Assembly (NCBI GenBank): GCA_034189385.1
Contig: JAXHVD010000002.1
Coordinates: 96,001-160,000, forward strand
Source of the DNA: Thermodesulfobacteriota bacterium
GTDB lineage: Bacteria > Desulfobacterota > Desulfobacteria > Desulfobacterales > C00003060
Length of the DNA stretch: 64,000 nt
Direction of reading: 5' to 3'
This document shows positions 20,701 to 26,700 of this stretch, in pieces. The position numbers were made by a program. Each line of letters opens with the position of its first letter. Positions within the stretch are counted from its first letter, which is position 1.

Positions 20701-23700
20701 GACAAGACGAACAAGAAAGACAAGACAATGAATAGCCAGGACAGTCTTTGGTATGGGGCCTCTTTATCCATCTGACTGGCAGTGACCATTGCCACTGCCA
20801 GGAGAGAGAACAAGACAAGAAGTGCATTTGCCAGGGGCGAAACTCTGAGAATGCTTCCGGATGTGAGCAACACAGCAAAGGAGCTTAACCCAAATAGGAG
20901 TGTATTCGTCACTGCACGTCTCCAGAAGTCACATTGATCAGAAGAGGTCTGCATGAGCTGACCGTGGATTTCTGTTCTCTGCTATCATAAATGGTGGCAT
21001 GTTGCCAACACAGGGATTTCAAGGGGCCTTTAAACATGTTATGATACTGCGTCGCAAACAGGGCCTGAAAAGTGATTTGCTCCGGTGCCCATGTTCAAAT
21101 CAGTGCAAAAGGAGGACACCCCTGGCCATGCAGGCACAAGAAATCAAAGCCATATCCAGCGAAAAGTACCTGGGTGAGATCATAGACTCGGGCTGGTCCA
21201 TGGTTGGTCCTAGAAAGGATCCAGACAAGAATTTGCGTTCAGCGAAGAACTTCTTTAAACGGGACATTGCCTTCGTCCCAGAACATGTCTTGAAGGCCGA
21301 CGGTTTCAAGATCGTTCCGCCCAGCAGTTTCACGCGGGGCCATCAGCTCATGTACAAGGACGACGGGAAACTGATCCGCTACACCAAGAGCCAGTACACG
21401 CTTACTTCTGGGGAATCTGAGGTCCCTCTCTATGTTTTTTTAAGGGAGGATGAAACGGACCTGTAGGGCGAGATCGTTGTAAGAACTCCTAGATTCTCTA
21501 AGGCGTTTGTCTGCCCTGCCAACAACCATATAGCCGATAAGACAACCTGGTTTTACCCATGCCGCTAGACATAAGAGACGCCCCATACCTGAATCACGAT
21601 GATATATTGGACCTGAATTTCATCAAGGACCCAGGAGTGTATGTTTTCAGGAGGCATTATCGCCAAGGATTGCGCTCCCATATCATGGAGATATTGAGCC
21701 CCCAGGCAGTGGCAAACGAAACACGGGGGGTCTATTTAGAGGGATCGATGCGATATCCAAAGGCTGAGCCCTCTAAGATGTTAAGGTTGTTTAGAGCCAG
21801 ATTCAACAGCCTCAAAGAGGCTAAAGAAGAGTTGACAAGGGTTAAACTCATAATGGCCTACCTTGCTCCTGATCATCTGGGAAGGCCTGAAGAATTCCTC
21901 GTCGATTATTCGCTATCTGGCCAAGGGGAGATCCTTCTTTGCGGTCTCCAGGAATATGTGCACGGTGAGGTCCTGGATCCTTGGAGTCTCCTGAATAGGA
22001 ACCATCTGGTGTCCATGCTAAACGACATGGGCTGTGATGGGGCCGGCGAGGCAGGCAGAGAAGGCGACCAATGGGCCCATTGCGTGCGGGAAAAGGCGGC
22101 CAGCCTTGTACAAAAGCTCAAAGAGATGATCATGGAGGCCCATCACGTACCGGATCTTGCGGGCATAGGAAATCTGATACTTACCCGGAACGGAGACATC
22201 AAACTTGTGGACATCAACAACATCTCCAGGGTTTTTTTTGACACGACTATCAGTCTCGATGACAGGGGGTATCCGGTCTGCGACAAATCGATTCAGGCCC
22301 TCTCCCTTCTTGAGAAGAAACTCCTTGGGAGGTCTTTAGGTAAAGATCACCCTATCTATGGGGTATTCCTTGATCCTGAAAGGATGAAAAACGTTGACGC
22401 GGCAGAAAATGCCTTCTACCTTTCTATGGAGACAAAGAAGTAAGACTCTGGACAATCCGTAGCTGCAGCCCTTTTCTCAGCCGGAAAATGGATAAACACC
22501 TTGCACTATCAACTCGTGGTGACAGGGATTCCGTTTTTGATGCCAGCCACAACCGGTCTCATGCCACATTCTGATTGATCCATCATGAGTCAGCCTAGAG
22601 AAGGGCGTGTAACTTCCGCAATACCCCTTCGTATTCGTCTCTGCGGAAGCAGAAGTGCAGTTCCGAGAACCTTTCCCGCAAGGCCTTGACCTGATCGGTG
22701 ACATGGGCATTGTTCATGACCACGTCATGAATCAGGCCTGCCAGGGTCTGAAAATCTTCTTCCCGCATACCGAAGCGTGTCATTTCCGAAACGCCCATCC
22801 TGAGCGCCCCTGATGCAGTAAACCCCTCTTCATCTGTGTTCGCCTGGTAGTTGCAGATGATGTTGTTCGCTTCCAGGCGCCTTGCCATTTCAGGGCCGTG
22901 ACTGTAACCTACATCTATGACTACCTGGTGGGTCTCCGTAAAGTCTATGGCCGGATCACCTGCCACATCCAGCCCTGCATCCCTTAGGGCCCGGGCAAAG
23001 GCCTTGGCATTTGAAATGACCTGGGGTTGGTATTGGCCCTTAAAGTAATTCATCTCATACGTGGCCATGAGAAGCCCTACTACAGTGCCGAGGTGGTGGT
23101 TGGAGACAGATCCAGGAAAGGCACGGCGAAGGAGGGACTCCCACAGTTCATATTCCTCTTCGTTTTCTTTAAATCGACTACCCACAACACCACGTTGGGT
23201 CCCGAAAAAAGTTTTGTGGGTCGACCCAGTGACCAGATCAGCACCTTCCACAAAGGGTTCCTGAAAGTGAGGACCAAGGAGCCCCAGTACATGGGCCATG
23301 TCGTACATGACCATGGCACGGATGCCTTGCCTGTCCAGGAACTGGCGAATCTCCGCCACCGGCTCCTTGTGAAGGACCATGCTCTTTCCAAATATGATCA
23401 ATTCAGGTCGGTACTCCTCTATCAATTCCAGTGTGGCTGGGACATCGGTTTTAAAAGGGTTGTCAGGCAATACAGGGAACTTCACAACGGCCGGACGCTC
23501 TGTGCGGGGATTGCGGGCCACGAAGTCCTTAAGAGCTCCCATGGGCTGAGCACTCAGGTGCCCCCCCTTGCCGATGTGACTATTCATGACGTGGTGAATA
23601 CGCCGCGGCTCCACCTTTCGGTCCGTACGATTGATATAATCCACCATGGCGCTGAAGACGGCCGTGTTGGCCATCTGCCCGCTTACTAGGCGCAATTCCA

Positions 23701-26700
23701 CATTTTCGCAGCCCAGGTATGCCAGCATTTCCTGTTCCAACATCCGCTCGACCTCGTCGATGAAACCGGTCCCCTGGTAATAGAAGATCTCGGCATCATA
23801 GAAGGCCTTGGCCTTTTTGTGCTCGGCATAACGAAAGGCCGGGTCCATGACCGAGACCAACCGCGCCATAGGAGAAGGCGTCATCTCAGAGGGGATGAGA
23901 TTGATACACTCCCGTTGTCTCCAGAGGGTGTTTTCCAAGGTTTTTCCCAGCAGCCTTTCCACTTTGGCAGATGTATCCCCTGTGGGAAGCTCCTTGGCAG
24001 GCAGCTCGAAGTCGAAGAGGATGGGACGGACATAGGGCGGCGCATCTCCACGCATGTGAAAGGGCACCACCACGGCGTCTACCAACTTGCCCCTGATTTC
24101 TATGGTCAGCTTATCCTCTTCGATGATGTCACTGTCTAAGTATCCCAGACAGATGGAGCGGAGCTGACGTTGGTCTGTCTGCGCAGATTCAAGTCCCTCG
24201 CCCTCCACAGTCCACATGGGAACCATGGTACCGCTGGTGACGTAACCGACGTGCTTGTCCTGTTTAAAGACCTTGGCGCCTTCACGGGCGATCCCTCGGC
24301 CTGACACGGCGATGGGCTGGCTGATACGGGGAAGATCTTGGTTAAGGGAATAGTCGCGCCTCATGATTCTCTTAAAGGCCTCGTGCTGCCTGGTGAGTTC
24401 CTTGCGACCTAAGAACTCCCCCTTAAGGGGGGAGAGACTTACAGCAAACTTGGCAAGAGGACAGGCAAATATGGGGATTTCTTTGCCCTCCGGGTCTTCA
24501 CCCAATTCATGTCCGTAAAGCGGAAGGGCCGCCTCTAGCCTGAGCGTATCCCTGGCGCCCAGTCCGATGGGAGTCGCCCCTTTTGACAGGATCAGGTCCC
24601 ACAGCATGGGACCGTCTGCTCGGTCGGCGAAGAGCTCAAAGCAGATCGGCTCCCCTGTATAGCCGGTGCGGGAGACCTTGACCGTGGCACCTGCGATGGT
24701 CACCATGCCTACAGTGTTTCGCATGGGTTCCGGCAGTTGGCCGGACTCCACGATCTCTTGCATCACGTGACGGGACATGGGCCCCTGGAAGGCCAGCATG
24801 GCGATTTCCTTGGTGCGATCAATCAGTTCAACGTCGTCGAACTCCTTTAAGAGCGGCTGGAAGTGGTTCCAGGCCTTCTCACGGTTGGAGCCGTTTACCA
24901 CCAGAAGATATTCGTCCTCCACAAAGCGATAGAGGTAGGCGTCGTCCACAGCGCCGCCCGTTTCGTTGGGAATCATGGTATACTGAGCGCCCGTCTCCCT
25001 GATGTCCAGGGCTTCGGCGTTATTGGTCAAGACATGTTGAAGAAACCTCAATGCCCCATCCCCGCGGACGATGAATCGGCCCATGTGGGAAACGTCAAAA
25101 AGCCCTCCGCTCTTGCGCGTGGCAAGATGCTCCTCCACGATACCGCTAGGATAGAAAATGGGCATTTCCCAGCCCACAAATTCTACTATCTTGGCGCCCA
25201 AGGCCACGTGTTGGTCATAGAAAACGGTTCTTAGAAGTTCGCTCATGAATGGTCTCCTTTCCCTGTGAAAGGGCCGGATGGTATCAGGCTAGAAGGATTT
25301 CGTCAACTGAAGCCGGCCCTGCCAAGCAAGTGGATGTCTGGGATGAATCCACAATGAACAACCATGTCGCAATTGCATTCAGTGGTGTGATATGATAATC
25401 GCTAAACCCTTAGCCTTTGTGTGCCTTCCTGCATGGATCGGAGAATTCTAGCTCTCTTAAAGTGTGCCCTGTTCAGATGGTCGTTTCTGGATACTTGATG
25501 CCGGGTAAGCCTCGTCATTCGATCCAGACGTGTCCAGCGTCCACTTGATGGAAGGGCCGTGATCTCAGAGGGGATTCGGAAGCATCGAGTCAGGAGACGT
25601 TTCACTTAAAAAAACGTATCATTTTGGTGCTTTCAAAAGCTGTTTTACGAGGGAGATGGAGTCCGCCACGGCGGAGAAAAGGTTTTTTCAAAATGCTGAA
25701 CTCGTAAGAGAAAACAATATTGAAAGGGGAGGGATAGTCATGAAAGAAATCAGTGAATTGAACCTACCGGATGATCTTCGCTATGCGCAAGATCACGAAT
25801 GGGCCAGGCTTGACGGCGACAAGGTTCGGGTCGGTCTTGACGACTATGCCCAGGATCAGTTGGGGGACATTGTATTTGTAGAGCTCCCCCAGGTAGGTGA
25901 CAGGTTCAAGAAGGGTGACGAGTTTGCCACGGTGGAATCTGTCAAGGCTGTGTGCGAGTGTTACTTGCCTGTGAGCGGGGAGATCATGGCGGTGAACACG
26001 GCTCTTGAAGAGGCGCCTGAACTGGTGAACAAAGACCCCTATGGTGAGGGATGGTTTGTGGAGGTGAAGCCTGACGATACCTCTGAGATGGACAGCCTTA
26101 TGTCCAATGTGGACTGCCTTGAGAAGCTGAAAGGAGCGGAGTAGATGCGTTACTTGCCCCATACGACGGAAGACGTAGCTGCAATGCTTGATGTTGTGGG
26201 CGCTGACGATCTTGACGACCTCTTTTCCACGATCCCAGAGGATTGCGGTTTTAAAGGGCATCTCGATCTGCCCGAGGCATTGACAGAGTGGGAGCTAAAC
26301 GACCACATGAAAGGCCTTTCCGGGAACATGGCTGTCTCTCCGGCTTACAAGGTGTTTATGGGGGCGGGGAGTTACGAACACTTCATCCCTGCCTCCGTGT
26401 CCTATCTCTTGGGCCGATCAGAGTTTGTCACGTCCTATACCCCCTACCAGCCGGAAATGAGCCAGGGGACCCTCCAGGCGATCTATGAGTATCAGAGTCT
26501 TGCCGCCCGGCTTCTGGGCATGGAGGTGGCAACAGCGTCCCATTATGATGGGGCCGCGGCCTTGGCCGAGGCACTCTTGATGGCCGTCCGTGTGACCAAG
26601 AAGAAAAGGGTGGCGTTGTCCAGTCTCATTCATCCCCTTTACCGCCGCGTGGTTCGAACCTATTTTGAGCCCACCGGTTACGAAGTCACGGAACTGGGCT

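What a model noticed while it worked through the whole genome (the two positions that open the first line are those of the whole stretch)
22595..25246. Glycine-cleavage T protein fused to an archaeal-type serine hydroxymethyltransferase (GcvT-SHMT, 883 aa)
g01520 joins a full GcvT to a full SHMT with its PLP lysine motif, divergently next to gcvH-gcvPA-gcvPB-lipB-lipA, while a normal bacterial glyA stands elsewhere. The fusion puts the two methylene-THF steps of glycine/serine conversion on one chain.
Evidence so far: Pfam GCV_T 9-251 and SHMT 436-839; SHMT half is 36% to crenarchaeal enzymes and 29% to the genome's own GlyA. One frame spans both halves in 20 of 36 genus genomes at 76-84%; the 120 best database hits across the junction carry SHMT and GcvT families on one chain.
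(Added by a program. Inside this text positions count along the whole contig: contig position 96,001 is position 1 of the stretch shown here. "Call 12" and the like, gene names such as g00115 and contig names such as C1 are that model's own, and its searches are not shown. The text may have been shortened before it was handed on; [...] marks where a part breaks off. The agent that wrote the report below was given it as the finding of a first reader that could run no searches.)

Follow-up and report, generated by a model that had tools for sequence, protein, structure and literature searches.

The report
Natural GcvT-SHMT fusion enzyme
One bacterial gene joins two textbook one-carbon enzymes, the T protein of glycine cleavage and serine hydroxymethyltransferase, into a single chain that probably turns glycine into serine; it is widespread and usually labelled only "GcvT", and I found no paper describing it.

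Summary
Confirmed. Window 22595-25246 (-) is one 883-aa frame: a full GcvT, a short linker and a full SHMT-family domain, divergent from gcvH-gcvPA-gcvPB-lipB-lipA. It is the genome's only GcvT; a canonical glyA lies elsewhere.

The SHMT half looks active. Its catalytic residues are kept and dN/dS is 0.04-0.07. In 14 of 16 near-complete genomes of two Desulfobacterota families it is the only SHMT-family gene. One folate contact is changed (Asn347 to Gln in 51 of 53).

"Archaeal-type" needs refining: the fused domains form their own clade, whose nearest relatives are stand-alone bacterial SHMTs, not crenarchaeal ones.

Glycine riboswitches precede the gene in 18 of 18 Bacillota genomes, one operon continuing into serine dehydratase. 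This favours 2 glycine to serine. AlphaFold predicts docked halves (pTM 0.89); channelling is unshown.

Acetobacterium woodii's strongly translated "gcvT" has the fusion's length. A reverse-order SHMT-GcvT fusion arose independently. This scan noted the fusion before in other genomes. New variant of known enzymes.

The parts
22595..25246 (-). gcvT-SHMT fusion gene, 883 aa (P0001)
24023..25246 (-). GcvT (aminomethyltransferase) half, residues 1-408
   Evidence: Pfam GCV_T and GCV_T_C; passes NCBIfam gcvT cut-offs; fold match to 1wos/1woo
23954..24022 (-). Linker, residues 409-431; 23 residues long in 75 of 92 aligned fusions
   Evidence: pLDDT 75-79 over residues 401-420
22598..23953 (-). SHMT-family half, residues 432-883; PLP lysine K678 at 23213-23215
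25253..25260 (-). Ribosome-binding-site-like purine stretch 6 nt before the ATG
   Evidence: read from the sequence
25740..26144 (+). gcvH, glycine cleavage H protein
26145..27476 (+). gcvPA, glycine decarboxylase subunit 1
   Evidence: passes NCBIfam cut-off
27473..28930 (+). gcvPB, glycine decarboxylase subunit 2 (ORF finder starts at 27413; relatives of 485 aa suggest 27473)
28920..29735 (+). Alpha/beta hydrolase of unknown substrate inside the gcv operon; near the fusion in 4 related loci
29736..30554 (+). lipB, octanoyl transferase
30591..30977 (+). PD-(D/E)XK family ORF inserted between lipB and lipA
30981..31931 (+). lipA, lipoyl synthase

Best explanation
A bifunctional, tetrahydrofolate-dependent enzyme that is the T protein of this cell's glycine cleavage system and carries its own SHMT. 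GcvP decarboxylates glycine onto lipoyl-GcvH. The T half moves the methylene to THF and releases ammonia. The SHMT half adds that methylene to a second glycine and returns THF. Net: 2 glycine + NAD+ + H2O -> serine + CO2 + NH3 + NADH, the chemistry of plant photorespiration on one chain, with the halves docked on each other. Shown: domain anatomy, conservation, gene context, distribution. Inferred: both activities, the folate cofactor, the direction, the docking and the usual SHMT dimer.
For: (1) T half passes NCBIfam gcvT cut-offs (302.1 vs 300; 238 vs 235.85), is the only GCV_T gene of the genome and sits with H, PA, PB, lipB, lipA. (2) In 53 fused SHMT domains the E. coli-numbered residues are kept: S35 53, Y55 53, E57 52, Y64 49, Y65 52, H126 52, S175 53, D200 53, H203 52, H228 53, K229 52, R363 53. 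(3) The SHMT half is closer to P0001 than the T half in 82 of 91 relatives; dN/dS 0.04-0.07 against 11 close relatives that also come from this lineage. (4) It is the only PF00464 gene in 14 of 16 genomes (92-100% complete) of families f16 and f42, whereas 249 of 251 sampled phylum genomes have an SHMT-like match. All 14 have formate-THF ligase and GcvP. (5) A glycine riboswitch lies within about 1 kb upstream, same strand, in 18 of 18 Bacillota genomes with the fusion. In Acetobacterium malicum the order is riboswitch-gcvH-fusion-gcvPA-gcvPB-serine dehydratase beta-alpha. (6) AlphaFold2 full-length pTM 0.89, mean pLDDT 91.9; linker length fixed in 75 of 92. Separate halves scored 0.58 against a best control of 0.00: weak support. 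That mark was reached by 116 of 157 solved complexes and 2 of 215 mismatches, but at 0.60 or under by only 18 of the 157 and by both mismatches; runs agreed in at least 90% of contacts, partner pLDDT at least 91. (7) A second, reverse-order fusion of bacterial-type GlyA and GcvT exists (119 of 120 listed hits).
Against: No activity has been measured. The folate-binding Asn347 (direct hydrogen bond to folate per PMC4257618, passages) is Gln in 51 of 53, and both folate loops differ in length. The domain misses the NCBIfam SHMT cut-off (236.6 vs 335). A clade with fluorothreonine transaldolase was not rejected (AU p=0.30). This genome has no glycine riboswitch, no serine dehydratase alpha hit and no L protein over the cut-off (380 vs 408.8; 90% complete), so direction here is borrowed from relatives. 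38 of 49 bacterial genomes with this clade also keep a canonical glyA, one of them as a fragment, and near-complete genus members G433, G463 and G465 lack the fusion. The A. woodii paper reads the cluster in the serine-to-C1 direction.
Confidence: 0.58

Rival explanations
1. Both halves are active but run in parallel rather than as a cycle. Either serine is stripped to two methylene-THF plus CO2 to feed the Wood-Ljungdahl methyl branch, or methylene-THF from that pathway feeds both halves to build glycine and then serine (reductive glycine route). The fusion then fixes stoichiometry and co-regulation, and nothing is handed between the sites.
For: This genome has fhs and acetyl-CoA synthase and no riboswitch. 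PMC8407422 (section 8 read) proposes serine -> glycine -> methylene-THF in A. woodii on fructose, with the cluster translated more there. Where the fusion is the sole SHMT it must serve whichever direction the cell needs. A SerB-like gene neighbours the fusion in 2 loci.
Against: Glycine riboswitches in 18 of 18 Bacillota genomes and the downstream serine dehydratase in 2 of 3 Acetobacterium loci fit glycine-induced catabolism; that these switches turn genes on is recalled from B. subtilis gcvT, not tested. Predicted docking is easier to explain if a folate is shared.
Confidence: 0.27
2. The C-terminal half is a folate-independent aldolase or transaldolase, like ObiH or fluorothreonine transaldolase, or acts on another hydroxy amino acid and supplies glycine to the cleavage system.
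For: Asn347 to Gln and altered folate loops. The best solved relative after M. jannaschii SHMT is the L-threonine transaldolase 7k34 (E 1.6e-30). Grouping with FTase was not rejected. Some enzymes annotated as SHMT proved to be transaldolases (PMC10495429, passages).
Against: Glu57, Tyr55, Tyr64 and Tyr65 are kept, whereas the five transaldolase-like rows mostly lack them. FTase model score 123 vs cut-off 650. Sole SHMT-family gene in 14 of 16 genomes. Fused to a folate enzyme.
Confidence: 0.1
3. The SHMT half is a non-catalytic scaffold or decaying passenger, or the join is an assembly or annotation artefact.
For: Some distant members have lost key residues (1 of 53 lacks the lysine). A few loci carry frameshifts, and one is joined to an unrelated HD-domain gene.
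Against: Same join in thousands of database proteins (5,310 hits for the junction region), strong purifying selection, sole-SHMT genomes.
Confidence: 0.04

Closest known systems
Glycine cleavage T protein, GcvT (TIGR00528, PRK00389; T. maritima 1woo/1wos, B. subtilis 1yx2, E. coli 3a8i)
   Same: Same fold (TM 0.87 on the target, 36% identity), passes family cut-offs, same operon partners.
   Different: Carries a 450-residue PLP enzyme at its C terminus and has insertions near residues 290-306 and 343-365.
Archaeal serine hydroxymethyltransferase (M. jannaschii 4uqv/4bhd; Thermoproteota SHMTs)
   Same: Best solved match (E 2.2e-50; TM 0.89, rmsd 2.5). Shares S before THK, Gln at 235 and the SNHH motif.
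   Different: Separate clade with bacterial sisters; Gln at 347; three insertions; fused. Archaeal enzymes prefer modified folates (PMC3697235, passages), while these hosts have formate-THF ligase.
Bacterial GlyA (E. coli 1dfo; this genome's glyA at G000:C18)
   Same: Same predicted reaction and catalytic residues.
   Different: Only 26-30% identical; on the other side of a fully supported branch.
L-threonine and fluorothreonine transaldolases (ObiH 7k34, FTase TIGR04506)
   Same: Same half of the family tree; E 1.6e-30 to 7k34.
   Different: The fusion keeps the Glu57/Tyr64/Tyr65 set and is far below the FTase cut-off.
Reverse-order SHMT-GcvT fusion (about 1,050-1,260 aa; source names include Chloroflexota, Planctomycetota, Thermoplasmata)
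   Same: Same two domains on one chain; beside gcvH-PA-PB in L177.
   Different: Opposite order, bacterial-type GlyA with Asn347 kept, long middle segment: an independent origin. I found no paper on it either.
Mitochondrial glycine decarboxylase plus SHMT of photorespiration (recalled)
   Same: Same net reaction, 2 glycine to serine, through a shared folate.
   Different: Separate proteins there; here one chain.

Membership tests
GcvT (aminomethyltransferase) | Curated family score | tested here: met
   NF001567 302.1 vs 300; TIGR00528 238 vs 235.85
GcvT (aminomethyltransferase) | Conserved Asp-Asp, Asn, Glu and Arg residues of the folate and catalytic site (their roles are recalled) | tested here: met
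   D101, D102, R232 in 92 of 92; N118, E199 in 91 of 92
GcvT (aminomethyltransferase) | H and P partners in the genome | tested here: met
   adjacent gcvH, gcvPA, gcvPB
GcvT (aminomethyltransferase) | L protein (dihydrolipoamide dehydrogenase) available | tested here: inconclusive
   best hit 380 bits vs cut-off 408.8 and as close to MerA-like models; genome 90% complete
GcvT (aminomethyltransferase) | Aminomethyl transfer from H protein to THF | not testable with these tools
   needs an assay
SHMT | Pfam PF00464 over cut-off and fold type I PLP structure | tested here: met
   116.3 vs 27 bits; TM 0.89 to 4uqv
SHMT | NCBIfam PRK00011 cut-off | tested here: not met
   236.6 vs 335 for the whole protein; a stand-alone sister, L157, scores 410
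SHMT | PLP lysine and amino-acid site (S35, Y55, E57, Y65, H126, D200, H203, H228, K229, R363) | tested here: met
   52-53 of 53 each
SHMT | Folate-binding Asn347 | tested here: not met
   Gln801; Gln in 51 of 53. Other folate contacts are kept: Y64 49, S175 53, F257 49, P258 50, L127 49 of 53
SHMT | THF-dependent serine/glycine interconversion; dimer | not testable with these tools
   indirect only: sole SHMT-family gene in 14 of 16 genomes; the dimer exceeds the complex tool's size limit
Archaeal SHMT | Falls on the archaeal side, apart from bacterial GlyA | tested here: met
   support 100 in both trees
Archaeal SHMT | Nested among or sister to crenarchaeal SHMTs | tested here: not met
   AU p=0.023 for a clade with six core Thermoproteota rows; no named euryarchaeal rows were in the tree
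Archaeal SHMT | Uses a modified folate such as methanopterin | not testable with these tools
   hosts have formate-THF ligase
Threonine transaldolases (ObiH, FTase) | TIGR04506 cut-off | tested here: not met
   123 vs 650
Threonine transaldolases (ObiH, FTase) | Common clade with FTase | tested here: inconclusive
   not in the best tree, not rejected (AU p=0.30); FTase is a long branch; ObiH itself was not in the tree

The most novel reading that the evidence does not exclude
The two halves form a rigid machine that passes one folate between the T site and the SHMT site without releasing it. The clade-wide Asn347-to-Gln change and the extra loops would be the adaptation of the folate pocket to this. 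That would be a natural, single-chain 'glycine-to-serine synthase' insulated from the Wood-Ljungdahl folate pool, and selection for it would explain why T and SHMT fused twice in opposite orders.
Probability: 0.25. Interest if true: 0.85.

Novelty: new variant of a known kind. Interest (0 to 1): 0.6.

Why it matters
Whether methylene-THF passes directly between the glycine cleavage system and SHMT is an old question in photorespiration and mitochondrial one-carbon metabolism (recalled); a natural one-chain version makes it testable with a single purified protein. The same two steps are the core of the engineered reductive glycine pathway, so the fusion is a ready-made part. It is present in cultured anaerobes (Acetobacterium malicum, Vescimonas fastidiosa, and by gene length A. 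woodii). In A. woodii that gene has 7-12 times the ribosome density of glyA and was already moved into Eubacterium limosum as plain "gcvT". Annotation as GcvT alone hides an SHMT, so metabolic reconstructions would miss the only SHMT of two Desulfobacterota families.

Tried and rejected
Artefact or chance read-through: rejected. Direct crenarchaeal origin: rejected at p=0.023. The AU test of the fused clade together with bacterial GlyA did not finish and gives nothing. FastTree did not recover the bacterial sister group found by IQ-TREE; it left the sister unresolved (vs 80).

No RNA family near the gene in this window: two weak eukaryotic lncRNA hits only. The promoter and terminator scan was at chance level. 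The glycine reductase search rang in no control genome and is uninformative. Sequencing runs: no RNA holder listed. Laid contigs showed only fragments, with pieces from relatives crossing the junction in X1 and X3; not used as evidence.

Literature: nine searches listed no paper describing the fusion. Passages read in PMC1971073 and PMC11316075 were about other fusions. The library lacks most subscription journals, so absence from print is not proven. I could not measure distances between active sites because model coordinates are not returned. The exact look-up for the L018 protein found nothing, so the A. woodii link rests on gene lengths.
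Full report
OBSERVATION. Window 22595-25246 (-) is one open frame of 883 aa. Pfam finds GCV_T at 9-251, GCV_T_C at 363-395 and SHMT at 436-839. 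The T half passes both general NCBIfam gcvT cut-offs; the whole protein scores 236.6 against 335 for the SHMT model. The gene reads away from gcvH, gcvPA, gcvPB, an alpha/beta hydrolase, lipB, a PD-(D/E)XK ORF and lipA. It is the only GCV_T hit in this 90%-complete genome; a canonical glyA is on contig C18. Close relatives are named Desulfobacterales, Desulfobacteria or Desulfobacteraceae.

DISTRIBUTION. A scan of named genomes returned 61 loci. The join recurs in Desulfobacterota, Thermoleophilia, Firestonebacteria, Poribacteria, marine Proteobacteria, Acetobacterium, Megasphaera and Oscillospiraceae. Distant members carry source names of SAR324 and Woesearchaeota. A few members stand alone (L050, L058, L155); they nest inside the fused clade and look like fissions. 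In an even sample of 251 genomes of the window's phylum, 23 carry this clade, 22 of them fused, one of those frameshifted and one cut by a contig end. Databases mostly name the protein GcvT, as RefSeq does for Vescimonas fastidiosa. One record, CAH0538348.1, has a name that begins to list both activities, so automatic pipelines have sometimes seen the fusion.

IS THE SHMT HALF ACTIVE? I aligned 145 SHMT-family domains, numbered by E. coli GlyA. Among 53 fused domains the PLP and amino-acid site is complete: S35 53, Y55 53, E57 52, Y65 52, H126 52, D200 53, H203 52, H228 53, K229 52, R363 53. The folate contacts Y64 (49), L127 (49), S175 (53), F257 (49) and P258 (50) are kept. Asn347, which hydrogen-bonds folate in E. 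coli, rabbit and Bacillus enzymes (PMC4257618, passages), is Gln in 51 of 53, and both folate loops differ in length. This counts against a standard pocket, but it is a fixed trait of the clade, not decay. The SHMT half is closer to P0001 than the T half in 82 of 91 relatives, and dN/dS is 0.04-0.07 against 11 close relatives (synonymous sites are near saturation, so the ratios are rough). The strongest argument is genomic. In families f16 and f42 of the phylum sample, the fusion is the only PF00464 gene in 14 of 16 genomes of 92-100% completeness; one more also has glyA and one has no hit at all. One of the 14 (G274) has a frameshift in the gene. Across the phylum 249 of 251 genomes have an SHMT-like match. 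All 14 have GcvP and formate-THF ligase. These genomes are kin, so this is two lineages, not 14 events. Against indispensability, 38 of 49 bacterial genomes reached also keep a canonical glyA, one as a fragment.

ORIGIN. FastTree on 145 rows and IQ-TREE (LG+C20, quick search, SH-aLRT only) on 56 of them both put the fused domains in one clade with support 100, on the archaeal side of a fully supported branch from bacterial GlyA. IQ-TREE joins them (99) to stand-alone bacterial SHMTs of about 420-440 aa, which are the only SHMT-family hit in most sampled genomes of families f19, f40, f49 and f58 and share the FGKS and GxQRG motifs. FastTree left the sister open. A clade with six core Thermoproteota SHMTs was rejected (p-AU 0.023). 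A clade with the long-branched fluorothreonine transaldolase was not rejected (p-AU 0.30). So 'archaeal-type' is right as a subfamily label, but the nearest relatives found are bacterial. Named euryarchaeal SHMTs and ObiH were not in the tree. The T half looks bacterial: its best solved match is T. maritima GcvT; I built no tree for it.

STRUCTURE. AlphaFold2 with 92 aligned fusions gave mean pLDDT 91.9 and pTM 0.89. Two freely moving halves of this size would give roughly 0.55-0.6 (my estimate from the pTM formula), so the model places them against each other. The linker is 23 residues in 75 of 92. Folded as separate chains, the halves scored 0.58 against a best control of 0.00, which the tool calls weak support: 116 of 157 solved complexes and 2 of 215 mismatches reached the mark, but at 0.60 or under only 18 of the 157 and both mismatches; runs agreed in at least 90% of contacts, partner pLDDT at least 91. 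No solved chain in the listed matches covers both halves. The SHMT dimer was not modelled.

DIRECTION. Prompted by two earlier scan notes, I searched 69 genomes for glycine riboswitches. All 18 Bacillota genomes with the fusion have one within about 1 kb upstream on the same strand (positions). In 5 of 8 f16 genomes a pair precedes gcvPA. The other genomes, including this one, have none. In A. malicum the order is riboswitch, gcvH, fusion, gcvPA, gcvPB, then both serine dehydratase subunits: a route from glycine through serine to pyruvate. The dehydratase follows in 2 of 3 Acetobacterium loci. This genome has fhs and acetyl-CoA synthase, no serine dehydratase alpha hit and no clear L protein, so its direction is inferred from relatives. 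Only in the direction 2 glycine to serine, or its exact reverse, does one half make what the other uses.

A MODEL ORGANISM. In PMC8407422 (passages, section 8 and rows of supplementary table S2) A. woodii gcvT, Awo_c32800, spans 2,649 nt. gcvH, gcvT, gcvPA and gcvPB there have the same order and lengths (378, 2,649, 1,347, 1,467 nt) as in Acetobacterium locus L018, whose gcvT is the fusion. I therefore infer it is the fusion; I did not see its sequence. Its ribosome-profiling RPKM is 1,114 and 231 in the two conditions against 94 and 34 for glyA. I did not see the sub-header; the paper's text implies fructose first. The authors treat the gene as plain aminomethyltransferase. They cloned gcvHTP into E. 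limosum, saw 2.25-fold faster growth on fructose, and read the flux as serine to C1 units, which supports the first rival on direction.

CONVERGENCE. Two phylum genomes have a 1,090-aa protein with bacterial-type GlyA first and GcvT last. A search with its junction gave 3,468 hits; 119 of the 120 listed have this order. These SHMTs lie with GlyA in the trees, so the two enzymes fused at least twice.

MECHANISM AND VERDICT. Most likely (0.58) a THF-dependent bifunctional enzyme that couples glycine cleavage to serine formation. I put SHMT activity at about 0.85 and the direction at about two in three. Rivals: parallel use of the two halves (0.27), a folate-independent aldolase (0.10), a passenger or artefact (0.04). 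True channelling: about 0.25. Nine literature searches listed no description; the library lacks most subscription journals. This scan has noted the same fusion in other genomes (14 windows, 8 notes shown); those notes are not independent evidence. It is a new variant of known enzymes, real and directly testable in cultured acetogens. Interest 0.6.

Noticed in passing
L177:4278-7553 (-), L178:1106-4375 (-); P0515-P0634: Independent reverse-order fusion, bacterial-type GlyA then GcvT, 1,050-1,260 aa; longer forms carry an extra partial GCV_T segment. Source names include Anaerolineae, Planctomycetota and Thermoplasmata.
   Followed up: partly
L011:1401-2807 (-) and the same place in related Desulfobacteria loci; G000:C19:14262-15629: This genome has no dihydrolipoamide dehydrogenase over the cut-off. 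In L011 a CoA-disulfide-reductase-like flavoprotein sits between gcvPB and lipB, where this window has a hydrolase; its cluster spans 8 loci but also holds ordinary LpdA-like genes. It may be an unusual L protein.
   Followed up: partly
L157-L174: Stand-alone archaeal-type SHMTs are the only SHMT-family hit in most sampled genomes of Desulfobacterota families f19, f40, f49, f58 and in two f36 genomes; canonical glyA was not found there.
   Followed up: partly
L176 (G095:C1:1308000-1322000): A Thermoproteota genome clusters gcvPB, gcvPA, gcvT, an NAD-kinase-like gene, SHMT and gcvH unfused; the same NAD-kinase-like family follows gcvPB in L034.
   Followed up: no
G029:C17, G030:C28, G034:C139, G035:C23, G039:C115, G040:C42, G041:C29, G042:C55, G043:C34: Single glycine riboswitch aptamers also lie just upstream of the canonical glyA in nine Oscillospiraceae-type genomes.
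   Followed up: no
window 21559-22443 (+): A 294-aa ORF with no Pfam match lies tail-to-tail with the fusion here and near it in 6 related loci.
   Followed up: no
window 14961-20954 (-): Two large membrane proteins with DUF4350/GIFT domains (820 and 875 aa) precede a 191-aa ORF ending in Cys/Thr/Gly-rich repeats; this resembles an exosortase-linked precursor-peptide locus (resemblance recalled, untested).
   Followed up: no
window 9266-12955 (+): A 1,229-aa GlmS-like protein (glutamine amidotransferase plus SIS domains), about twice the usual length, with long unannotated ends.
   Followed up: no
L179:83-4696 (+): A 1,537-aa frame joins a truncated fusion to a 7TM-HD hydrolase; probably a deletion or mis-assembly in that genome.
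   Followed up: no
L004:4107-5399 (-): A second, 431-aa GcvT-like gene (31% to the T half) lies directly before gcvH opposite the fusion in one relative.
   Followed up: no
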